From an uncultured Thermoleophilia bacterium (GTDB lineage Bacteria; Actinomycetota; Thermoleophilia; UBA2241), in assembly GCA_963702475.1 (NCBI GenBank), contig CAVPCT010000006.1, positions 64,001 through 128,000 on the forward strand: a DNA stretch of 64,000 nucleotides, in the 5' to 3' direction. The position numbers and the translations under genes are program-made. Below the pieces are notes generated by a model. The model did no database searches. It was not told the origin of the DNA and was given only the letters and a program-made list of their open reading frames with translations. Numbering within the stretch: position 1 is the stretch's first letter; the number at the start of each line of letters is the position of its first letter. Shown one piece after another: positions 42,998-61,217 of this stretch.

Positions 42998-44086
42998 CTA
43001 CCTGCCCTTCCAGAGAAGGTACGGGCCCTCTGCGGCCTCCTCCGGCGTGAGCTCCAGGGGGAAGGTGACGGTGCGGCCCTCGGCCGCCGACCGGTACGCG
43101 GCGTAGACCACCTCGAGCGAGACGCGCCCGTCCGCGCCGGTCTCCAGCGGCGGGCGATCGTCGAGCACGCAGTCGGTGAAGTGCTGCATCTCCTGGGGCA
43201 TGCCGTAGTTGTAGTACTCCTCCGCGATGGCGTAGCTGTAGCCGAGGGTGGAGCCTTTCTCCACCGAGTAGCCGTAGCCGACGTCGCTGTAGGCCAAGAG
43301 CGACGACTGCTGCATCATGTCGCCGTGGCAGGTGCCGGCGCTGCCCTGGATGTCGAGGCGGTCGTCCATCCCTCCGGGCTTGGCCCAGCTGCCTTCGATC
43401 ACGCCCAGGCGGTCGCCCGCGAAGCGGATGGTGACCAGGGCGTGGTCCTCCAGGTCGGTGCGGTCGCCGTGCACGAACGTGCCCAGCACCGCCGTGACGC
43501 TCTCGACCGTCGGCTTGTCGTACAGCCACCGGATGACCTCCACGCTGTGGCAGCCCATGTCCATCATCACGCCGCCGCCGGCGAGGCGGCCGTCCCAGAA
43601 CCAGTCCGAGTGCGGCCCGTAGTGGGTCTCGCCGTGCCTGATCTGGAAGACGCGGCCGAAGGCGCCTTCGTCCATCAGGTCCTTGGCGCGCACGTAGCGC
43701 GGCGCGAAGCAGATGAGCTCGGCGTACATGAGCTTGACGCCGGCGCGCCGGGCGGCGGCGATCATCTCGTCCGCCTCCGCCATGGTGCGCGCCAGCGGCT
43801 TCTCGCACACGATGTGCTTGCCCGCCTCGGCCGCTGCAACGGCGATGTCGCGGTGCACGAAGTTGGGCGCGCCGATGCAGACCATGTCGACGTCCGGGCG
43901 CTCGAGCATGCGCCGCGCGTCGTCGTAGGCGGCGTCGAGCCCATACGTCTGGGCCAGCTTGCGGGCCCTGGCCATGTCCGGGTCGGCGACGGCCAGGACG
44001 CGAGCTCCTTTCACGCGTTGGAACGCGAGCGCGTGCTGGTCACTGATGAGCCCGGCTCCGACCAGGCCGACGCCGATCTCGTCCAT
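42998..44086 (-). CDS. Gfo/Idh/MocA family oxidoreductase
   Basis: GLVGAG, HIVCEKP, GGGVMMDMGCH; ATG 44086 follows GAGGAG. Confidence 0.9.
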   Translation of the reverse strand: MDEIGVGLVGAGLISDQHALAFQRVKGARVLAVADPDMARARKLAQTYGLDAAYDDARRMLERPDVDMVCIGAPNFVHRDIAVAAAEAGKHIVCEKPLARTMAEADEMIAAARRAGVKLMYAELICFAPRYVRAKDLMDEGAFGRVFQIRHGETHYGPHSDWFWDGRLAGGGVMMDMGCHSVEVIRWLYDKPTVESVTAVLGTFVHGDRTDLEDHALVTIRFAGDRLGVIEGSWAKPGGMDDRLDIQGSAGTCHGDMMQQSSLLAYSDVGYGYSVEKGSTLGYSYAIAEEYYNYGMPQEMQHFTDCVLDDRPPLETGADGRVSLEVVYAAYRSAAEGRTVTFPLELTPEEAAEGPYLLWKGR

Positions 44087-44118: not shown

Positions 44119-45582
44119 TCAACCCAGGGCCGCGTCGGCCGCGTCCACGATGCGGCGCAACTCGGCCTGGACGTCGGCGGGGAGCGGCTCGGGGCGGTGC
44201 TCGGCCACGACCCGCCGCGCCTCGTCGCGGGCGCGCTGCGCCAGGTCGGTCGCGCCGGCCGCCTGCCAGGCAGCGAGCACGTCACGGTCCCACAGCCTCG
44301 GCTGACTCGCCTCACGCATGTGCCGCAGCGTGTGGTCGGTGGAGATGAACTCGCCGCCCGGTCCTACCTCGTGGATGAGGTCCACCGCCAGCGTCTCGCG
44401 GCTGACCGGCACGCCGCGCACCAGCTGGCGGATGAGCGCGATGGCCTCGTTGTCCATGACCATCTGCCCCAAGTCGCACGTCATGCCCGATTCGAGCATC
44501 CCCGCACCGTAGATCAGGCTGGCCCCTGCCAGCGCTGGCGCAAGTCCGGTGAGGGTCTTCTCGTAGGCCGTCTGCGCGTCGCTCACCTTGGAGTCCGCCT
44601 ACAAGCCGGCGACCCAGCACGGCATCTCGTAGAGGGCGCTGAGTTGCGCGACGCAGGCGTTGAGCAGCGCCGTCTCGGGCGTGCCGACGGAGGCGGTGCC
44701 GAGGCGAAGGTCCATGGCGGTGCTCGATGAGGAGTAGATGACGGGCGCGCCGCGCTCGGCGAGCTGGACCATCACGGTCCCGGCCAGGACCTCGGCGTTG
44801 TGGACGACCAGCGTACCGGCGAGCGTCTGGGGAGTGGTGCCGCCCGACATGCACATCGCGAGGATACTCAGGGGCAGGCCGTTGCGGGCCGCGAAGAGGC
44901 AGACGTCGGTGCCCTGCTCCGTGAGCTGCAACGGGCTCAGCGAGCACATGCCCATGCCGAGGAAGGGTCGTTCGCGCAGCTCGTCGTGGCCGCCGGCCAC
45001 GGCCGCGGCCAGATCGAAGCACGTCGCCTGCTCGGCTTTGCTGAGCGGTCCGAACATCATCGGCTTCGTCACGTGCGGCAACGCCGCCGCCAGGTGATGC
45101 ACGGTGGCCAGCTCTTCGGGGCAGTCGCGCGGGGTGATCGCCGCCTCGTACACGTCGATGTCGCTGGCCCAGTCCACCACCCTGCAGATGTCGGCGACGT
45201 CGGCGGTGCGCGCCGGGCGGTTCTCGCCCGTCTCGAGGTCGTTCACTTTCGGAGCCTCACCGAAGTTCATGAAGGCCAGGCGGCCGTCGCCCAGCATCAG
45301 GTCGTGCCGCGGGTCGCGGCCGCACCAGCGGATCAGCGGCGGCGCCGAGCCGACACAGTCCTCCACCACGCTCGCCGGGATGCGCACGATGCGGCTGTCG
45401 TCGTCGACCACGCAACCGCCGTCGCGGAACACCGCGCGCGCGTCCGCGGCCTCGACGAGGACGCCGGTGCGTTCAAGCACCTCCAGGGTGGAGAGGTGGA
45501 TGTCGTGCAGGTCGCTGCCGCTCAGGGGAGGAGCGGCGATGCCCTGCGTGCGCGGGAGCCCCGCGTACTCGCCTCGTTTCAT
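44119..45582 (-). CDS. mttB: Trimethylamine:corrinoid methyltransferase MttB with an in-frame amber codon (putative pyrrolysine), 487 aa with readthrough
   Basis: The 327-aa ORF and the 155-aa ORF are in the same frame, separated by TAG. The joined protein aligns end to end with my recollection of methanogen MttB: MSGG..P..LAGTLV.HNAEVL, P.(W/Y)VAG.-O-.D.K..D.Q...EKT, ALAGA..IYGAGMLE.GMT, PVS.ETLAV. Confidence 0.9.
44599..44601 (-). other. In-frame UAG, codon 328 of mttB, at the pyrrolysine position
   Basis: Minus strand TGC TGG GTC GCC GGC TTG TAG GCG GAC TCC AAG GTG AGC GAC. Confidence 0.88.
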
Positions 45583-45649: not shown

Positions 45650-46933
45650 TCATGCTATCGCCCCGGCCAGCGAGTCCAGGGCGTGGAACGCGCGCGTGAT
45701 CGGGCCTGCCGGCCCGGCGCGCGGCTGGCTCGAGAGCTTGACTACGACGATGCCCGCGCCGGCGTCGACGTAGAGCATCTGCCCGTACATGCCGACCCCC
45801 AGCAGCACCGCACGGCCGGGAGCCGGCTCGGCCACCCAGAAGCCGCCGCGGTAGGAGCCTCCCGGCAGCATGTCAGCGTCGTCCGAGGCGGCGAACACGG
45901 CCCTGTCGCCGTTGCGCCGTGCGTCTTCCAGCCACCAGTCCGGTACGACCTGCCGGCCGTTCCAGCACCCGTCCTTGGCCAGCATCTGGCCGAAGCGCCC
46001 CAGGTCGCGCAGGCTGCTGCAGAGCCCGCCGTCGAGCAGGGCGCTGCCGGCGCCGTCCAGCAGCACGTAGGCGTCGTGCTCCGTGCCGAGCTTGCCCCAC
46101 ACCTCGTCGCGGATGAGACGGGGCACCGGCGCGCCCGAGGCGCGCTCGAGCACCCACCCGAGCACGTCCGTGTTGAGCGACACGTAGTGCAGCGCGGCGC
46201 CGTGCGCGCCGCCGGGCGCGGTGGCCGTCGCGTAGTCGTAGATCGAGCCGGGCTCGTCGGCGGCGCGGCGCGGCTTGAGTCCGCAGAGGCGGTCCAGCCG
46301 GGAGTCCTCGCTGTCGGCGTCCTCGTGGTCCTCCGTGTAGGCGATGCCGACGGTCATGTCCAGGAGGTGACGCACGGTCGCCCCAGCGTACGCGCTGTGC
46401 GCCAGCTCCGGCACGAGGTCTGTCACGACTCGGTCCGGGTCCAGGAGGCCGCGCTCGGCCAGGCAGGCGGCCACGCAGGAGCCGAGCGACTTGGTGATGG
46501 AGTGCCACAGGTGCGGCGTGCCCGGCGCGAGCGTGCCGAAGTAGCGCTCGCAGAGGACCCGCCCGTCAAGCAGCACCAGCACGCCGTCGGTGTCGGTCGC
46601 GGCGAGCATCTCCGCGAACGACCATGTGCCCGGGGGCGCTCCCGCCGAGGCGTCGCCGACGTCCACGAGCTCGAGGTCGTCGAGCGCGGCGGGAGCCGCG
46701 GCCAGCTCGACGACCGGCTCGTGGCGCGTCGAGACGTCGGCGGTGCCGACCACCTCCCGCGCGTGCTGCATGAACCACTGCGTGCGGCGCGGGTCGGCGT
46801 ACACCTGATCGGCCCGCACGCGCCGGCCGGGAGGCGGCGGGAAGCCGCGCATGAGCGTCGCGTCGAACGTGCTCGGCGCCGACGCGCCGGGCTCGCGCGC
46901 GGCTCCGGCCTCGTGCCCGCGCGTCGTGGTCAC
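45650..46933 (-). CDS. Serine hydrolase, beta-lactamase class C-like (6-aminohexanoate-dimer hydrolase NylB-like)
   Basis: MRGFPPP, HSITKS (SxxK), TVRHLLDM, YVSLNTDVLGW, GMYGQ. Confidence 0.88.
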   Translation of the reverse strand: MTTTRGHEAGAAREPGASAPSTFDATLMRGFPPPPGRRVRADQVYADPRRTQWFMQHAREVVGTADVSTRHEPVVELAAAPAALDDLELVDVGDASAGAPPGTWSFAEMLAATDTDGVLVLLDGRVLCERYFGTLAPGTPHLWHSITKSLGSCVAACLAERGLLDPDRVVTDLVPELAHSAYAGATVRHLLDMTVGIAYTEDHEDADSEDSRLDRLCGLKPRRAADEPGSIYDYATATAPGGAHGAALHYVSLNTDVLGWVLERASGAPVPRLIRDEVWGKLGTEHDAYVLLDGAGSALLDGGLCSSLRDLGRFGQMLAKDGCWNGRQVVPDWWLEDARRNGDRAVFAASDDADMLPGGSYRGGFWVAEPAPGRAVLLGVGMYGQMLYVDAGAGIVVVKLSSQPRAGPAGPITRAFHALDSLAGAIA

Positions 46934-46937
46934 GCGC

Positions 46938-47732
46938 TCAGCCGCCGGCCCCCGGCAGAGCCGGTGGCGCCATGCGGGGGTCGGCCCAGAAGCCCTGCAT
47001 GATGCCTCCGTCCACGCGGATCGTGATGCCGGTGACGTACTCCGCCTCGTCCGAGGCCAAGAAGAGGACCACGTTGGCCTGATCGCGGGGCAGCGCCGGA
47101 CGGCGCAGGGGGATCCGCTCCATGTAGCCCCGGTACGTGTCCTGGTCGTCGGTGAAATCCATCATCGGCGTCATCGTCATGCCGGGGGCCACCGCCACGC
47201 AGCGCACGCCGAGGTGCGCCAGCTCGAACGCCATGCTCTGGGTGAGCAGGTTCACGCCGCCCTTGGCGGCGTTGTAGTCGGCGTAGGGCGACTCCACGAT
47301 GAACGAGTTGCACGACGAGATGTTGACGATCACGCCGCCGCCGTGCTGCACCATGTTCCGGGCGGCGGCTTGGCTCGTATAGAAGTAGCCATTCAGGTTG
47401 ATGTCGATGACGCGCTGCCACTGCTCCGGGGTGATGTCGAGGATGCCGACCATAGGGGCGATGGCCGCCGCGTTCACGAGCACGTGGATGTGGCCGCGCC
47501 GCTCGGCGACGCCGTCGACGGCCGCCCGCACCGCGGCGGGGTCGCTCACGTCCAGTGCCGCGGCCTCGATGCGCTCCTCCGGCCCTCCGGCGCACGTCTC
47601 GGCGAGGCCTTTCTCGTTGAGGTCGACCGCAACCACGAAGGCGCCCTCTTCGGCGAAGCGCCAGCTGAACTCCTGGCCCATGCCCTGCGCTGCCCCGGTG
47701 ACGATGACCGTCTTGCCCTGGAACCTTCCCAT
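46938..47732 (-). CDS. Short-chain dehydrogenase/reductase
   Basis: TGAAQGMG, NAA, YNAAK, VDGG. Confidence 0.92.
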   Translation of the reverse strand: MGRFQGKTVIVTGAAQGMGQEFSWRFAEEGAFVVAVDLNEKGLAETCAGGPEERIEAAALDVSDPAAVRAAVDGVAERRGHIHVLVNAAAIAPMVGILDITPEQWQRVIDINLNGYFYTSQAAARNMVQHGGGVIVNISSCNSFIVESPYADYNAAKGGVNLLTQSMAFELAHLGVRCVAVAPGMTMTPMMDFTDDQDTYRGYMERIPLRRPALPRDQANVVLFLASDEAEYVTGITIRVDGGIMQGFWADPRMAPPALPGAGG

Positions 47733-47767
47733 GTCCACCCTCCGATGGCGTAGTGCGCCGTCTCCGC

Positions 47768-48991
47768 CTACCGCCGCGGCGCGCCGGGGAGCCCGAGGGG
47801 CTCGTCGCCGCGGATCTCGCGCAGCAGCTCGATGTACTCGCAGAAGTTCTCGAACGGCATGTCGATGGGGACGAGGTGGTCCGGGCTGGGGAAGTACGGC
47901 CCCGTGTCCGCCAGGGCGCGGACCTTGGTCAGCACCTCGTGGCGCAGCGACGCCTTGTCCTTCATCAGCTCACGCTTGTCGAGTCCCCCAGCGAGGATGA
48001 TCTCCTTGCCGTACTTGCGGCGCAGCGCGAGGGGGTCCGTGCCGGCCGCGATCTCGAGCGGCCAGAACAGGTTGATCCCAGCATCCAGCCAGATCGGCAC
48101 GAGCTCATCGACGTTGCCGTCGCAGTCGAGGTAGAGGACGTCACAGCCGGCGTCGCGGATGACCTTGTTGAGCCGCTCGTAGCGGGGCAGCATGAAGGTC
48201 CGGACCATCTTCGGGCTGATCATCGGCCCGCTCTTGTAGGCCATGTCCTCCCAGTACCACACCCAGTCGAGGCGGATGTCCCTGGTCACCCTCTTCACCA
48301 TGGCCATCTCGAGCTGCAGCACGGTCTCCATCATGTCCTCGACGAGGTCCGGGTCGTCGTAGAAGAGGTACATGAGGTCCTCGGTGCCGACCCACATGTT
48401 GAGGTAGCCGAAGAACCCGCCCACCTCCATCGACACCGGGCAGTCCAGCGCGTTGATCGCGGCCGCGTACGCCTCCCAGTCGGCGGGGTAGCGGCCGGGC
48501 GTGTCGGGGTCGAGCCTCGCCTTCACCCGCGCCCAGGAGCGCCGGTCCTTGACCGGATGGTCGAGCCAGGCGGGCATGTTGAACGCCTTGCCCTTGAGCA
48601 GGCGCTCACTGATGCCGGCGCTGTCCCGCACCACCACGCTCGTCTCGTCCTCCTCCAGTACCTGCGGGGTGAACGGCGGGTTGAGCAGGAAGGAGTGGTC
48701 GTGGGCGACCACCCCGGGCACGTACTCGTACATGCGCGTGCCCGCGTCCATGCCGCTGTGCACCTCGGCCAGCGACCGGGAGGGGTCGAAGCCGAAGAAC
48801 TCGTCGACCGGGCTGGGTGTGCCGTAGTCGAGGTCGTCCACGCCGAGAAAGCCGGCCGGCGCCCCCTGGGCGACCCAGGCCTGGATCGTCTCGGGCCAGA
48901 AGATGTGGATGCCGTTGCCGAGGATGCCGAAGTCGCCCAGGCGTTCTCCCCGGCAGATCTCGCGGAACCGCTGTCTCGTGAATGCCGTCAT
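47768..48991 (-). CDS. UroD/MtaA-fold protein, paralog of 911-2116
   Basis: MTAFTRQRFREICRGE start; WEDMAYKSGPMISP, DCDGNV, GGLDK, PDHLVP; ATGA overlap with the corrinoid gene. Confidence 0.87.
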   Translation of the reverse strand: MTAFTRQRFREICRGERLGDFGILGNGIHIFWPETIQAWVAQGAPAGFLGVDDLDYGTPSPVDEFFGFDPSRSLAEVHSGMDAGTRMYEYVPGVVAHDHSFLLNPPFTPQVLEEDETSVVVRDSAGISERLLKGKAFNMPAWLDHPVKDRRSWARVKARLDPDTPGRYPADWEAYAAAINALDCPVSMEVGGFFGYLNMWVGTEDLMYLFYDDPDLVEDMMETVLQLEMAMVKRVTRDIRLDWVWYWEDMAYKSGPMISPKMVRTFMLPRYERLNKVIRDAGCDVLYLDCDGNVDELVPIWLDAGINLFWPLEIAAGTDPLALRRKYGKEIILAGGLDKRELMKDKASLRHEVLTKVRALADTGPYFPSPDHLVPIDMPFENFCEYIELLREIRGDEPLGLPGAPRR

Positions 48992-49645
48992 GACGCACCT
49001 CCCGCGGCGCCGGCGAGCAGGCGTTCCGCCTCGTCCACGGCGAGGATGCAGTCTTCGGCGAACCCTTCCGCGCCGATCTCGTCCGCCAGCGCGCGGGAGA
49101 CCGGTGCGCCGCCCACCATCACGGCGCACGCTGCCGCGCAGGCCGCGCTCCGCGAGCGCGTCGATGACGCGGCGGAACTGAGGCGTGGTCGTCGTGAGCA
49201 GCGCCGAGAGCGCCACGATGTCGGCGCGATGCTCCTCCGCGGCCGCGGCGAAGCTGTCGGCGCTCACGTCGGTGCCCAGGTCCACGACCTCGAAGCCGTT
49301 GCCTCTCAGCAGCATGCCCACGAGGCGCTTGCCGATGTCGTGGAGGTCGCCCTCCACGGTCCCGAGGACGACGACGCCCCTGCTCGGGCGCGCATCACCG
49401 GTGAGAGACGGCCGGAGCAGCTCCAGGCCGGCCGTCATGGCGCGCACGCTGATGAGGATCTCTGGCAGGTAGGCCTGCCCGTCCTTGAACAGCCGGCCGA
49501 GCTGCTGCAGCCCGGGGGTGAGGCCCTCGGTCAGGACCGCGTGCGGCGCGACTCCTTCTGCGAGCGCCTCGCCGACCAGCCTCACGACCGCGTTGCGGTC
49601 GCCGTCACGGACTCCATCGGAGATGCGCTCGAGCACCTCGTTCAC
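48988..49645 (-). CDS. Corrinoid methyl-carrier protein, paralog of 264-908; frameshift at ~49130
   Basis: YLPEILISVRAM, GDLHDIGK, SALLTTT; the C-terminus VMVGGAPVS..GFAEDC is in another frame. Confidence 0.88.
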
Positions 49646-50374
49646 CTCGGGCCTCCCTCGTCGGGTGACGCGTGCAGGCTCCAGCCGGGGCACGCCGTGA
49701 CATCCGGTCCGGGCGGGGACGGCTGTGGGGGGACAGCGCCCTCCGCCAGCACGCTCGCCACGTCGTCGAAGTCGGTCCAGGGCCGGTAGCGGACGCCCGC
49801 AAGGGAGCACAGCTCCGCGAGCCGGCCCTTGGCGAACACCACGTCCGCGAACAGGGCGCCGTAGCGGTCCGTCATGCCGTCGCCGACGAACGCGGTCCAC
49901 TCCGCGGTCTCGCGCGCGCGCAGCACCGCCTGCGCCTTGCAGGTGCCGCACCCCGCGCACCGCCGGTGCGCGTGCGGGTGGGTGAGGCGAAGGCCGTCCG
50001 CGGTGCGTCTCGACCGCGTTCGCCAGCACGGGCACGTCACCGAGCCCGGCCGCGTCGAGCATGGGGCGCACGTAGAAGCCGAGTCCGTCGCTGACCACAG
50101 TGACCTCGGCCCCCACGTCCCGTGCCCGGCGGATGAGCGCCGGGAACGTGGGGTCGACGGCGAAGCGCTCGAGGACGTAGTCCACCATCTCGACCAGGGA
50201 GGCGCGCAGCATGCGGGTCTGCGCGCCTATCGCGTCCCGCAGCGAGACTCGCCCCGCGTAGGCCTCGTCGTCCAGCGCGCGCCAGTCGCCTTCGGCGAAG
50301 CGGGCGCAGACCGCGTTCCCCACGTCCGTGGGGCAGACGGTGCCGTCGAAGTCGGCGAGGACGGTCGGCATCAC
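49642..50374 (-). CDS. HAD phosphatase, MtnX-like; frameshift at ~50008
   Basis: DFDGT, VSDG; CAGCGTCK, VGDGMTD and ADVVFAK are in the second frame. Confidence 0.82.
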
Positions 50375-59780: not shown

Positions 59781-61217
59781 ATGCCGTCGCCGCGACTCGC
59801 CATGCTCGGCCCGGCCGACCGCGACAGGATCCACGAGAGTACTCTGCACGTTCTCGAACGCGTCGGCGTGCGCTTTCAGAGCGCGGCCGCGCGCGCTGTC
59901 CTCGCGGGGGCCGGCTGCGCCGTGGACGACGACCGCGGTCTGGTGCGGATCCCGCGGCGAGTGGTGGAGTGGGCGCTCGACCAGCTGCCTCGCGACGTGG
60001 TGCTCGCGGGTCGCGACCCGGCGCGCGATGCGATGCTCGACGGGTCGCGCACGTTCGCGACGGTGGCCGGCATCTGCCCGTTCATCGTCGACCTCGACAC
60101 GGGCCTGTACCGGGAGCCGCGGCTCGAGGACCTCGAGATGGTGACGCGGGTCGCCGACGCGCTCGACGCCTACGGCATCGTGTGGTACTCGGTGAGCCCA
60201 ACCGGCGGCGTCCCCGCGGTCCTCGTCGATCTCGCCGCCACCGCGTGCATGCTGCAGAACACCGGCAAGCACGTGATGGGTCAGGTGCTCCGCCCCGAGC
60301 AGGTCCCGTACGCTCTCGAGCTCGTGCGCCTTCTGGGAGGCGCCCGTAACGGCGAGGCGCCTCCGGTGTTCTCCGTGATCTACTGTCCCGTGGCGCCGCT
60401 GCAGCACGACGGGCCGGCGCTCGAAGCCGCCATGGCCTTGGCAGCGCAGCGCGTGCCGATCGACATCTTCAGCCTCGCGCTGGCGGGCGCGACGGCGCCG
60501 GTCCCCCTCGCCGCCACCGTCATGCAGACGAACTGCGAGGTGCTGAGCGCCGTCGTCCTGCTCCAGCTCACGGCGCCCGGCTGCCCGTTGATCTACTCCG
60601 CCAACGCCGCTCTCATGGACATGAAGACGTCGCGCATCGCGGTGTCCACGCCGGAGACGCTGCTCATGAACGTGGCGCAGACCGAGCTCGCCCACTCCTA
60701 CGGCATGCCGGCCCTGAGCGTCGGCTACGTCCCGGACTCGAGCGAGCTGGGGTTCCGCGCGGGTGTCGAGGACATGGCCCTGGCGCTGCTCACGAGGCTC
60801 GGTCGCCCGGACATCATGACCGGGCTCGGCACGCTCGAGTCGGGTCAGGCGGTCTCGCTGCCCAAGATGATGCTCGACGCGGAGCTCGTCTCGTACCTCG
60901 AGCACGTCGGCGGCGGGTTCGCGGTGGACGACGACAGCTTGTGTGTCGACGCCATCGCCCGGACAGGGCCGGGCGGGCAGTTCCTGAGCCTGAAAGAGAC
61001 GCGGACACGGCTGCGCGCCGGCGAGCACTGGCAACCCGCCCTGCTGCGGCGGGCGTCGTACGCCGACGTGCGCAAGGGATCGCCGGACGAGGCGGAGCGA
61101 GCTCGCGAGGCCGTGCTCGAGCTGCTCGCGAGCCACCGGCCGCCGGAGATGGGGCCGGGAGTCGCCGAGGACGTCGCGGCGCTCCTGGCTGCGGCCGAGA
61201 TGGAGCTGTCTTCCTGA
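59781..61217 (+). CDS. MttB-superfamily methyltransferase, non-pyrrolysine type
   Basis: IHESTLHVLERVGV, PVAPL, GATAPV.LA, NCEVL, GPGGQFL. The Pyl-equivalent segment reads MPALSVGY-V-PDS with no stop. Confidence 0.88.
   Translation: MPSPRLAMLGPADRDRIHESTLHVLERVGVRFQSAAARAVLAGAGCAVDDDRGLVRIPRRVVEWALDQLPRDVVLAGRDPARDAMLDGSRTFATVAGICPFIVDLDTGLYREPRLEDLEMVTRVADALDAYGIVWYSVSPTGGVPAVLVDLAATACMLQNTGKHVMGQVLRPEQVPYALELVRLLGGARNGEAPPVFSVIYCPVAPLQHDGPALEAAMALAAQRVPIDIFSLALAGATAPVPLAATVMQTNCEVLSAVVLLQLTAPGCPLIYSANAALMDMKTSRIAVSTPETLLMNVAQTELAHSYGMPALSVGYVPDSSELGFRAGVEDMALALLTRLGRPDIMTGLGTLESGQAVSLPKMMLDAELVSYLEHVGGGFAVDDDSLCVDAIARTGPGGQFLSLKETRTRLRAGEHWQPALLRRASYADVRKGSPDEAERAREAVLELLASHRPPEMGPGVAEDVAALLAAAEMELSS

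What the first reader, a model, noticed from the sequence alone, without database searches (positions are those of the whole stretch)
44119..45582. Hidden pyrrolysine-type mttB: in-frame amber codon at the exact Pyl site in a high-GC, probably actinobacterial genome
Seen: two ORFs in one frame joined by a single TAG (44599-44601), giving a 487-aa protein ...EMPCWVAGL-TAG-ADSKVSDAQTAYEKT...IYGAGMLESGMT. Established: Methanosarcina MttB carries pyrrolysine in the equivalent context (..PSYVAGS-O-SDAKVPDDQAGHEKT..), encoded by UAG and needed for catalysis. This protein also has Pyl-clade features (MSGG..P..LAGTLV.HNAEVL, IYGAGMLE.GMT). The other lesions in the window are indels, whereas this is a clean codon at the one position where UAG is expected, and both halves are intact. 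Inference: the organism decodes UAG as the 22nd amino acid. Bacterial Pyl use is best known from Firmicutes and Deltaproteobacteria, so a case in this lineage would be notable. Standard annotation would call the gene split or pseudogenised.
Basis: partly seen in the sequence, partly recalled or inferred. Interest (0 to 1): 0.92.

Follow-up and report, generated by a model that had tools for sequence, protein, structure and literature searches.

The report
Pyrrolysine-type mttB in a Thermoleophilia genome
This is a real trimethylamine methyltransferase gene whose internal TAG codon almost certainly encodes pyrrolysine, the 22nd amino acid, in an uncultured high-GC actinobacterium that carries the full pyrrolysine machinery and about twenty more such genes; this use in Actinobacteria has already been noted in print.

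Summary
On the minus strand, 45582→44119 is one 487-codon frame with a single TAG (codon 328, window 44599-44601). It passes NCBIfam's equivalog cut-off for Pyl-type MttB, and the TAG aligns with the pyrrolysine of solved MttB (7XCL).

The genome (4.3 Mb, 9 contigs, 70% GC) carries pylB, pylC, pylD, a CUA-anticodon tRNA-Pyl, pylSn and pylSc. It also has 13 full-length mttB paralogues with TAG in the same column, 7 mtbB and 1 mtmB with TAG. In 24 of 25 related loci the TAG sits at the same place. All TAG-bearing rows fall in one clade.

The closest syntenic relatives are MAGs titled Thermoleophilia. PylSc was found in 23 of 25 congeners but in only 1 of 400 other genomes sampled from the phylum. 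TAG still ends about 16% of crude gene calls and RF1 is present, so the codon has two meanings.

Two papers already report this trait in Actinobacteria: PylRS in "two Actinobacteria", and Actinobacteriota MAGs expressing Pyl-mttB and mtbB. This is therefore a new member of a known kind.

One unexpected lead: the codon before the Pyl-TAG is the rare Leu codon TTG in three unrelated enzyme families.

The parts
44119..45582 (-). mttB, Pyl-type trimethylamine:corrinoid methyltransferase. 487 codons plus a TGA stop.
   Evidence: Pfam MTTB 4.2e-93. NCBIfam TIGR02369 trimeth_pyl scores 609.3 bits against a cut-off of 525. PDB 7xcl/7xcm MttB match at E 1e-104 over residues 5-485.
44599..44601 (-). In-frame TAG, codon 328, the proposed pyrrolysine codon.
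   Evidence: Aligns with X (Pyl) of 7xcl_A. Same column in 13 own paralogues and in 24 of 25 related loci. Present in public contig X2 record 19.
44602..44604 (-). TTG (Leu) codon immediately 5' of the TAG, a rare codon in this genome.
   Evidence: TTG is 3.5% of Leu codons in 2669 crude gene calls. It precedes the Pyl-TAG in 11 of the 12 own Pyl genes that have Leu there. Among congeners it does so in 29 of 30 mtbB loci and 8 of 8 mtmB loci.
48988..49645 (-). Methyltransferase-cognate corrinoid protein gene (mttC-like), frameshifted in this assembly near 49123.
   Evidence: Pfam B12-binding_2 and B12-binding. TIGR02370 pyl_corrinoid scores 161 bits over profile positions 2-169 of 197. The window has one extra base compared with the intact L014 orthologue.
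47768..48991 (-). URO-D / MtaA-CmuA-like methylcorrinoid methyltransferase (MT2 candidate). Ends in an ordinary TAG stop.
   Evidence: Pfam URO-D 1.5e-10. TIGR01463 mtaA_cmuA match is weak, 31.9 bits. The L014 orthologue is a separate 405-aa ORF. Coordinates.
46938..47738 (-). Short-chain dehydrogenase gene in the same conserved gene run.
   Evidence: Pfam adh_short_C2 1.7e-59. Colinear with L015 and L016.
45650..46933 (-). Beta-lactamase-family serine hydrolase gene directly upstream of mttB.
   Evidence: Pfam Beta-lactamase 2.5e-34. Colinear with L015 and L016.
42998..44086 (-). GFO/IDH/MocA oxidoreductase gene directly downstream of mttB. Ends in an ordinary TAG stop.
   Evidence: Pfam GFO_IDH_MocA 4.4e-31. 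Stop codon TAG.
59787..61193 (+). Second MttB-superfamily gene in the window, non-Pyl (no TAG). It serves as an internal control.
   Evidence: TIGR02369 scores 352.9 bits, below the 525 cut-off. It has Val at the Pyl column and lies outside the Pyl clade.

Best explanation
The gene is a functional Pyl-dependent trimethylamine:corrinoid methyltransferase (MttB) of an uncultured anaerobic Thermoleophilia bacterium (Actinomycetota).

Shown by sequence:
- One intact 487-codon frame with a single UAG at the catalytic Pyl position.
- A complete genomic Pyl system: pylBCD make pyrrolysine from lysine, and the split synthetase PylSn + PylSc charges tRNA-Pyl(CUA).
- Many sister Pyl genes in the same genome.

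Inferred:
- During translation, Pyl-tRNA(CUA) competes with RF1 at UAG-328 and yields the full-length enzyme. Termination there would give an inactive 327-residue fragment.
- MttB then moves a methyl group from trimethylamine to the Co(I) corrinoid protein.
- A URO-D-type MT2 passes the methyl on, probably to tetrahydrofolate, feeding a Wood-Ljungdahl pathway.

UAG is not reassigned genome-wide. It still ends about one gene in six, so the codon is ambiguous, as it is in other Pyl bacteria and in Methanosarcina.
For: Gene identity:
- TIGR02369 scores 609 bits against a 525 cut-off, while the non-Pyl paralogue in the same window scores 353.
- The TAG aligns with Pyl of 7XCL.

Machinery, all on contig C3:
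- pylB 438 bits (cut-off 348), pylC 324 (cut-off 248), pylD 209 (cut-off 150), pylSn 126 (cut-off 51), pylSc 315 (cut-off 178).
- ARAGORN finds tRNA-Pyl(CUA) 50 nt after pylD, with a 6-bp anticodon stem, a short D-loop and a 3-nt variable loop.

Sister genes:
- 13 of the 52 near-full-length MttB paralogues have TAG, all in the same column.
- 7 full-length mtbB and 1 mtmB each have one TAG.
- Pyl-type genes lie on 7 of the 9 contigs, and all contigs are 69.5-70.9% GC.

Conservation:
- TAG is kept in 24 of 25 related loci.
- All 37 TAG rows lie in one clade of 39 (SH-aLRT 98), with two Leu-bearing derivatives nested inside.
- The locus is colinear with Thermoleophilia MAG contigs at 75-79% nt identity over 5.6 kb.
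- PylSc is found in 23 of 24 congeners.
- mtbB with TAG, and trimeth_pyl over its cut-off, are each found in 26 of 26 genus genomes.

Contrast case: a TAG inside an epimerase gene of this genome is TAC in the one congener orthologue found. That is what a non-conserved nonsense codon looks like here.

Pathway: an AcsB/CdhC domain and formate-THF ligase are present.

Dual use: TAG ends 433 of 2669 crude gene calls, and RF1 scores 477 bits against a 423 cut-off.
Against: - There is no RNA or protein evidence for this gene. No listed run holding the stretch is on record as RNA.
- The neighbouring cognate corrinoid gene is frameshifted in this assembly. This is either an assembly error or a sign that the operon is decaying.
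- The bin is 93.8% complete and 6.5% contaminated, so linkage of contig C6 (the gene) to C3 (the pyl genes) rests on composition, on the spread of Pyl genes over contigs, and on congeners.
- This paralogue is among the lower-scoring Pyl-type copies (606.8 bits, against up to 731). It sits among an SDR, a serine hydrolase and a sugar-type oxidoreductase, an unusual setting for a TMA operon, so the substrate is not certain.
- No stable RNA structure follows the TAG (z = 0.09), so nothing shown here explains how it is told apart from a stop.
- PylSc was not found in 2 of 25 congeners (G004, G381).
Confidence: 0.9

Rival explanations
1. The enzyme is a working Pyl protein but not trimethylamine-specific. 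With 13 Pyl-type paralogues in one genome, this copy may have shifted to another methylated amine, perhaps one released by the adjacent hydrolase and dehydrogenases.
For: - G000 has 13 TAG-bearing paralogues spread over several subclades, with branch lengths of 0.1-0.5.
- This copy scores 607-609 bits, towards the low end of the genus range of about 539-740.
- A conserved gene run places an SDR, a beta-lactamase-family hydrolase and a GFO/IDH/MocA oxidoreductase around it.
Against: It passes the curated equivalog cut-off for the TMA enzyme and keeps the Pyl-flanking motifs of MttB. No Pyl-MttB with another substrate is known to me (recalled, not searched).
Confidence: 0.15
2. The TAG is a plain nonsense mutation or sequencing error, and the gene is a dead relic.
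For: The assembly does carry frameshifts in two neighbouring genes. At least one other gene has a private TAG where a relative has TAC.
Against: - TAG falls exactly at the Pyl column in 13 paralogues and in 24 of 25 related loci across three phyla.
- An independent contig carries it.
- Both halves align end to end with solved MttB and keep the coding GC3 signature of 0.91-0.92.
- The full Pyl machinery is present.
Confidence: 0.02
3. Binning artefact: the pyl cluster on contig C3 belongs to another organism, so this bacterium cannot read its own TAG.
For: CheckM-type contamination is 6.49%. The gene and the pyl genes are on different contigs.
Against: - All nine contigs are 69.5-70.9% GC.
- TAG-bearing methyltransferase genes lie on C2, C3, C4, C5, C6, C7 and C9.
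- C3 itself carries Pyl-type mttB and mtbB genes.
- 23 of 24 separately assembled congeners have PylSc, and 26 of 26 have TAG-bearing mtbB.
Confidence: 0.03
4. UAG is fully reassigned to pyrrolysine in this genome, as reported for some archaea, rather than being ambiguous.
For: The number of Pyl genes is very high: 21 full-length.
Against: - TAG ends 433 of 2669 crude gene calls, or 16.2%. These include ordinary genes beside mttB: the GFO/IDH/MocA, MT2 and MFS genes.
- RF1 is present over its cut-off.
- Of 49 further candidates with a TAG followed by a long coding-like extension, none with Pfam hits on both sides had a domain split by the TAG. They are neighbouring genes in one frame, apart from two private nonsense cases.
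- Distances to the next in-frame stop do not differ between TAG- and TGA-ending calls (Mann-Whitney p = 0.51).
Confidence: 0.02

Closest known systems
Methanosarcina barkeri MttB (PDB 7XCL, 7XCM, 7XCN)
   Same: Same family and length. The alignment runs over residues 5-485 at E 1e-104, with the UAG at the Pyl residue and the same flanking motifs: VAG-x-O-xDxKxxDxQxxxEKT, MSGG..P..LAGTLV.HNAEVL, IYGAGMLE.GMT.
   Different: The host is bacterial and high-GC. The residue before Pyl is Leu (codon TTG) rather than Ser. In bacteria the downstream methyl acceptor is presumably tetrahydrofolate rather than coenzyme M (inference).
Bacterial Pyl systems with a split synthetase (Desulfitobacterium hafniense; delta1 symbiont of Olavius algarvensis)
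   Same: pylSn and pylSc are separate genes, with pylBCD and pylT also present. UAG is still used as a stop. The delta1 symbiont likewise has several mtbB and mttB genes with UAG (PMC1976440, passages read).
   Different: - The phylum is Actinomycetota.
- pylSc lies about 15 kb from pylSn and on the opposite strand.
- There are far more Pyl genes here: 21 full-length, against 8 reported for delta1 in 2007.
Actinobacteriota MAGs of Stordalen Mire expressing Pyl-encoding mttB and mtbB (Ellenbogen et al. 2023, PMC10805028); PylRS in 'two Actinobacteria' (Guo et al. 2022, PMC9630628)
   Same: The same trait in the same phylum. One related locus here (L038) comes from a record titled 'Actinomycetota bacterium isolate fen_672', and its orthologue keeps the TAG.
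   Different: In the passages I read, those papers give only a sentence each. Pyl status was called from gene truncation, and no pyl machinery, paralogue counts, genus-wide conservation or codon context are described. I did not read their supplements or whole texts.
Non-Pyl MttB superfamily (e.g. glycine betaine methyltransferase MtgB, PDB 2QNE / 9YCE)
   Same: Same fold family, E 1e-62. This genome has 39 near-full-length non-Pyl members.
   Different: Those have a sense codon at the Pyl column and fall outside the Pyl clade. The window gene does not.

Membership tests
Pyl-dependent MttB (NCBIfam TIGR02369, trimeth_pyl) | MTTB-family sequence over its full length | tested here: met
   Pfam PF06253 4.2e-93, residues 19-481 on profile positions 33-494 of 500.
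Pyl-dependent MttB (NCBIfam TIGR02369, trimeth_pyl) | Score over the curated equivalog cut-off | tested here: met
   609.3 bits against 525. The non-Pyl paralogue in the same window scores 352.9.
Pyl-dependent MttB (NCBIfam TIGR02369, trimeth_pyl) | In-frame UAG at the position of the catalytic pyrrolysine | tested here: met
   Query residue 328 aligns with X of 7xcl_A, and with K of the 7xcm variant.
Pyl-dependent MttB (NCBIfam TIGR02369, trimeth_pyl) | Falls in the Pyl clade, apart from non-Pyl MttB | tested here: met
   Tree of 76 rows: all 37 TAG rows lie in one clade of 39 (SH-aLRT 98). No archaeal row was available for the tree.
Pyl-dependent MttB (NCBIfam TIGR02369, trimeth_pyl) | Cognate corrinoid protein and MT2 encoded nearby | tested here: inconclusive
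   Both lie 3.4-4 kb upstream on the same strand. However, the corrinoid gene carries a 1-nt frameshift in this assembly, and the MT2 match is weak (31.9 bits).
Pyl-dependent MttB (NCBIfam TIGR02369, trimeth_pyl) | Trimethylamine:corrinoid methyl transfer activity | not testable with these tools
   Needs an enzyme assay.
Pyrrolysine-decoding organism | tRNA-Pyl with a CUA anticodon and its unusual structure | tested here: met
   ARAGORN calls tRNA-Pyl(cta) at C3:641046-641118, with a 6-bp anticodon stem, a short D-loop and a 3-nt variable loop.
Pyrrolysine-decoding organism | Pyrrolysyl-tRNA synthetase (bacterial PylSn + PylSc) | tested here: met
   TIGR03912 scores 126.2 against 51.15. TIGR02367 scores 314.6 against 178.15. 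Neither has a stop inside.
Pyrrolysine-decoding organism | Biosynthesis genes pylB, pylC and pylD | tested here: met
   Scores are 438.1 against 348.2, 323.8 against 248.3, and 209.1 against 150.05. The three genes are adjacent at C3:637885-640975.
Pyrrolysine-decoding organism | Pyl detected in a protein by mass spectrometry | not testable with these tools
   No proteome is available.
Genome-wide UAG-to-Pyl code (archaeal 'Pyl code', Kivenson et al. 2025, seen only as cited in PMC13695967) | UAG no longer used as a stop | tested here: not met
   TAG ends 16.2% of 2669 crude gene calls. RF1 is present. Same-frame extensions past TAG are separate genes.

The most novel reading that the evidence does not exclude
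In this high-GC lineage, the codon just before a Pyl-UAG may be a cis cue that tips the ribosome towards Pyl insertion rather than RF1 termination.

- When that residue is Leu, it is almost always encoded by the rare TTG rather than CTG or CTC. This holds in three non-homologous enzyme families (MttB, MtbB, MtmB).
- When it is Ala, the codon is GCG in 28 of 28 cases.

The apparent rule is UUG-UAG-G, or more loosely NNG-UAG. It becomes visible only because strong GC pressure would otherwise erase TTG. If true, it would be the first simple sequence context found for Pyl decoding, which the passages I read describe as unknown in any organism (PMC12626013).
Probability: 0.25. Interest if true: 0.75.

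Novelty: new member of a known kind. Interest (0 to 1): 0.5.

Why it matters
Standard annotation splits this gene, and about twenty others in the genome, into fragments. That hides the fact that a widespread soil, sediment and wastewater actinobacterial genus is built around methylamine demethylation.

- This genome has 75 MttB-family matches and 21 full-length Pyl genes.
- TAG-bearing mtbB was found in 26 of 26 genus genomes.

Such bacteria compete with methylotrophic methanogens for methylamines, so the finding bears on methane budgets.

Within the phylum, PylSc was found in only 1 of 400 other genomes sampled, which makes this genus a clean case of a genetic-code expansion acquired and then amplified.

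The high GC content also exposes synonymous-site constraint around the UAG, the TTG-TAG pattern. This offers a cheap, testable handle on the old question of how UAG is read as Pyl rather than as stop.

Tried and rejected
- **RNA evidence.** No RNA holder is listed among the public runs. The runs I laid are contigs only, so nothing can be said about expression.
- **PYLIS-like element.** The 120 nt starting at the TAG fold no better than shuffles (-44.5 kcal/mol, z = 0.09). I made no alignment-based structure test.
- **tRNAs in the window.** None found.
- **Earlier findings of this scan.** Nothing to show.
- **Search for new Pyl protein families.** From 433 TAG-ending crude calls, 70 had an in-frame coding-like extension of at least 50 codons.
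  - 21 were the known methyltransferases and 49 were others.
  - A first Pfam call on the 49 read-through translations failed on size.
  - Scanning the two halves of each separately showed complete, different domains on either side, such as S6|SSB, SecY|Adk and PlsX|ACP. These are neighbouring genes in one frame.
  - The screen cannot see genes under 120 codons upstream of the TAG, extensions under 50 codons, or proteins without Pfam hits.
  - Two exceptions (L072, L078) proved to be private nonsense codons.
- **Back-up stops after TAG-ending genes.** No difference from TGA-ending genes (p = 0.51).
- **Taxonomy from a marker gene.** The ESM Atlas hit for SecY gave only 'commonest Actinomycetota' for the first cluster and Bacillota for the next two, which is weak. 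Taxonomy therefore rests on the record titles of syntenic relatives.
- **Archaeal rows for the tree.** None could be fetched, so the tree says nothing about the donor of the bacterial genes.
- **Literature.**
  - 'pyrrolysine' + 'Thermoleophilia' gave 1 unrelated paper.
  - 'mttB' + 'Thermoleophilia' gave 2 papers, which I did not open.
  - My query was badly framed and returned soil surveys.
- Searches had wrong frames and were corrected. One search aligned the wrong part of L014 and was corrected.
Full report
**Observation**

The feature lies on the minus strand. Read from 45582 down to 44119, the DNA gives one frame of 487 codons. The only internal stop is TAG at codon 328 (window 44599-44601, CTA on the + strand), and the frame ends in TGA at 44119-44121.

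**What the gene is**

- Pfam places residues 19-481 on the MTTB profile at 4.2e-93.
- NCBIfam's equivalog model for the pyrrolysine-type enzyme, TIGR02369 trimeth_pyl, scores 609.3 bits against a curated cut-off of 525.
- A second MttB-superfamily gene in the same window (59787-61193, +) has no TAG and scores only 352.9 bits, so the model does separate the two kinds.
- Against solved structures the best matches are MttB entries 7XCM and 7XCL (E 1e-104, residues 5-485). Query residue 328 aligns with the X that marks pyrrolysine in 7xcl_A, and the flanking motifs are shared. Non-Pyl relatives such as glycine betaine methyltransferase match far more weakly, at 1e-62.

**Is the TAG readable in this organism?**

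The window is part of contig C6 of a 4.31-Mb, 9-contig genome of about 70% GC. It is 93.8% complete and 6.5% contaminated. Contig C3 carries the pyl genes, each over its curated cut-off and without internal stops:
- pylB (438 bits), pylC (324) and pylD (209), side by side at 637885-640975;
- pylSn (126 bits) at 642228-642485;
- pylSc (315 bits) at 657647-658372, on the other strand.

ARAGORN finds a tRNA-Pyl with anticodon CUA 50 nt after pylD. It shows the expected odd structure: a 6-bp anticodon stem, a short D-loop and a 3-nt variable loop. A tRNA-Sec is also present.

**The gene is one of many**

The genome has 75 matches to the MTTB family. I aligned the 52 that cover most of the profile and left out 23 shorter pieces, two of which also hold TAG. 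Thirteen of the 52 have a single TAG, and all 13 have it in the same column as the window gene. The other 39 have sense codons there.
- Seven full-length dimethylamine methyltransferase (mtbB) genes each have one TAG, and 9 further pieces exist.
- One monomethylamine methyltransferase (mtmB) gene has a TAG, and four more distant homologues do not.
- These Pyl-type genes lie on 7 of the 9 contigs. Together with the uniform GC content, this argues against a binning artefact.

**Relatives**

A scan of species-representative genomes returned 25 related loci.
- In 24 of them the TAG sits at the aligned position. The 25th (L019) is not in one frame in my straight translation.
- The three closest (73-80% protein identity) are MAGs titled Thermoleophilia or Actinomycetes. 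Two of them are colinear with the window over 5.6 kb at 75-79% nucleotide identity, so this is a conserved chromosomal locus of that lineage.
- In a maximum-likelihood tree of 76 rows (52 own paralogues plus 24 loci), all 37 TAG-bearing rows fall in one clade of 39 (SH-aLRT 98).
- The two exceptions inside that clade are own paralogues with Leu at the Pyl column, which is a secondary loss.
- The tree has no archaeal rows.

**Distribution**

- PylSc was found in 23 of 24 same-genus genomes and in 1 of 16 other same-class genomes.
- In an even draw of 400 other genomes of the phylum, it was found in 1. That was the same out-of-genus genome (G032), and the one further congener in the draw lacked it.
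- TAG-bearing mtbB genes were found in 26 of 26 genus genomes, including this one. All 150 listed matches hold a TAG.
- Matches over the trimeth_pyl cut-off were found in 26 of 26. This genome has the most, 15, of which 13 have TAG; the others have 2-9.
- Pyl-type mtmB was found in 7 of 26.

**Reads**

Public runs holding the stretch are sediment, wastewater and freshwater-sediment metagenomes from 9 studies. I laid contigs of four runs. Record 19 of run X2 spans 44570-44930 with three differences, all listed elsewhere, so it carries the same TAG. Other contigs cover the site with no listed difference there, but not every difference is printed.

**Is UAG still a stop?**

Yes.
- In 2669 crude gene calls (ORFs of at least 120 codons with the coding GC pattern), stops are TGA 2150, TAG 433 and TAA 86. 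The TAG count includes the upstream halves of the Pyl genes.
- Ordinary genes next to mttB end in TAG: the MT2 gene, the GFO/IDH/MocA gene and an MFS gene.
- RF1 is present.
- A screen for other read-through genes found none beyond the methyltransferases, apart from two private nonsense codons:
  - a TAG in one of three tandem repeats of a surface protein, where the sister repeats have TGG;
  - a TAG inside an epimerase gene, where the only congener orthologue found has TAC.
- These two show what a non-conserved TAG looks like in this genome, in contrast with the mttB codon.

**Setting and likely mechanism**

On the same strand upstream lie, in order:
- a corrinoid-protein gene (49645→48988; TIGR02370, 161 bits);
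- a URO-D/MtaA-like MT2 candidate (48991→47768);
- an SDR gene;
- a beta-lactamase-family hydrolase gene.

A GFO/IDH/MocA oxidoreductase gene follows mttB. The corrinoid gene has one extra base near 49123 compared with its intact orthologue in L014, and a HAD-like gene changes frame near 49990. I could not tell assembly error from real decay.

The genome also has an acetyl-CoA synthase domain and formate-THF ligase. The likely flow, inferred from the known chemistry of these families, is TMA → MttB(Pyl) → Co-corrinoid → MT2 → methyl-THF → Wood-Ljungdahl pathway.

**Comparison with print**

- Guo et al. 2022 (PMC9630628, passage read) list PylRS genes in 'two Actinobacteria'. A 2025 review repeats this (PMC11764691, passage read).
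- Ellenbogen et al. [quoted passage not shown] Pyl status was called from gene truncation. They name genus RBG-16-64-13 among the most active bacterial methylotrophs.
- I cannot match that name to the unnamed genus here.
- Full-text searches for pyrrolysine with Thermoleophilia, Actinobacteriota or Actinomycetota gave no paper devoted to the trait in this lineage.
- In 2007 the record for a bacterium was 8 Pyl genes (PMC1976440, passages read). I did not check later counts.

The finding is therefore a well-supported new member of a known kind, not a first.

**An unexpected lead**

In the 21 full-length Pyl genes of this genome, 12 have Leu before the Pyl codon. Eleven of those 12 use TTG and one uses CTG.
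- TTG is only 3.5% of Leu codons genome-wide and 4.5% (40 of 893) of the other Leu codons in these same genes.
- The pattern occurs in MttB, MtbB and MtmB, which are unrelated families.
- In congeners, 29 of 30 mtbB loci have TTG (one has ATG) and 8 of 8 mtmB loci have TTG.
- The top-scoring mttB class has GCG (Ala) in 28 of 30, never GCC.
- Neighbouring synonymous sites do vary: the +1 codon is GTG, GTC or GTA.
- Orthologues in Desulfobacterales and Bacillota show no such rule.
- Avoidance of CTAG could explain the final G, but not TTG over CTG.
- The loci are related, so the counts are not independent events.
- A 2025 paper states that no mechanism for targeted Pyl insertion is known (PMC12626013, passage read).

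This context is a cheap hypothesis to test.

Noticed in passing
window 44602-44604 (-); G000 Pyl genes; loci L090-L157: The rare Leu codon TTG (3.5% of Leu codons) sits immediately 5' of the Pyl-TAG in 11 of the 12 own Pyl genes that have Leu there. Among congeners it does so in 29 of 30 mtbB loci and 8 of 8 mtmB loci. Where the residue is Ala, the codon is GCG in 28 of 28. The pattern spans three non-homologous families.
   Followed up: partly
window 48988-49645 (-), near 49123: The corrinoid-protein gene next to the MT2 gene has one extra base compared with its intact orthologue in L014, which breaks the frame before the VMVGGAP motif. This is either an assembly error or a real frameshift.
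   Followed up: partly
window about 49700-50371 (-), near 49990: The HAD-like hydrolase gene changes frame midway. Its C-terminal half continues in the +1 frame.
   Followed up: no
G000:C5:869152-870192 (-) = L078: An NAD-dependent epimerase gene has an in-frame TAG at codon 135. The Pfam domain spans the TAG when it is read through. The only congener orthologue found (G003, 61% identity) has TAC (Tyr) there. This is a private nonsense codon, possibly tolerated because UAG is partly suppressed.
   Followed up: yes
G000:C5:889589-892894 (-) = L072: A large surface protein has three tandem repeats of about 181 residues. One repeat has TAG where the other two have TGG (Trp).
   Followed up: partly
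G000, whole genome: The MttB superfamily is very large here: 75 Pfam matches, 52 of them near full length, and many clustered on contig C4. Only 13 are Pyl-type, so most are presumably quaternary-amine or other methyltransferases. G000 has more Pyl-type mttB copies (15 over the cut-off) than any of the 25 congeners searched (2-9).
   Followed up: partly
G000:C4:42533-43942 (+) and C4:59973-61373 (-): Two paralogues nested inside the Pyl clade have Leu instead of TAG at the Pyl column (VAGG-L-GDGK / SDGK). This is a secondary loss of pyrrolysine in an otherwise Pyl-type enzyme. One congener (G020) has a similar copy without a stop.
   Followed up: no
G000:C3:640190-640996 (+): pylD itself ends in TAG, and the tRNA-Pyl gene starts 50 nt downstream.
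   Followed up: no
G000:C3:167171-167268: A tRNA-Sec (UCA) gene is present, so the genome probably expands its code twice, with selenocysteine as well as pyrrolysine.
   Followed up: no
G004 and G381 (same genus): No PylSc match was found in these two fairly complete congeners (93% and 98%). Yet G004 has TAG-bearing mtbB and mttB genes.
   Followed up: no
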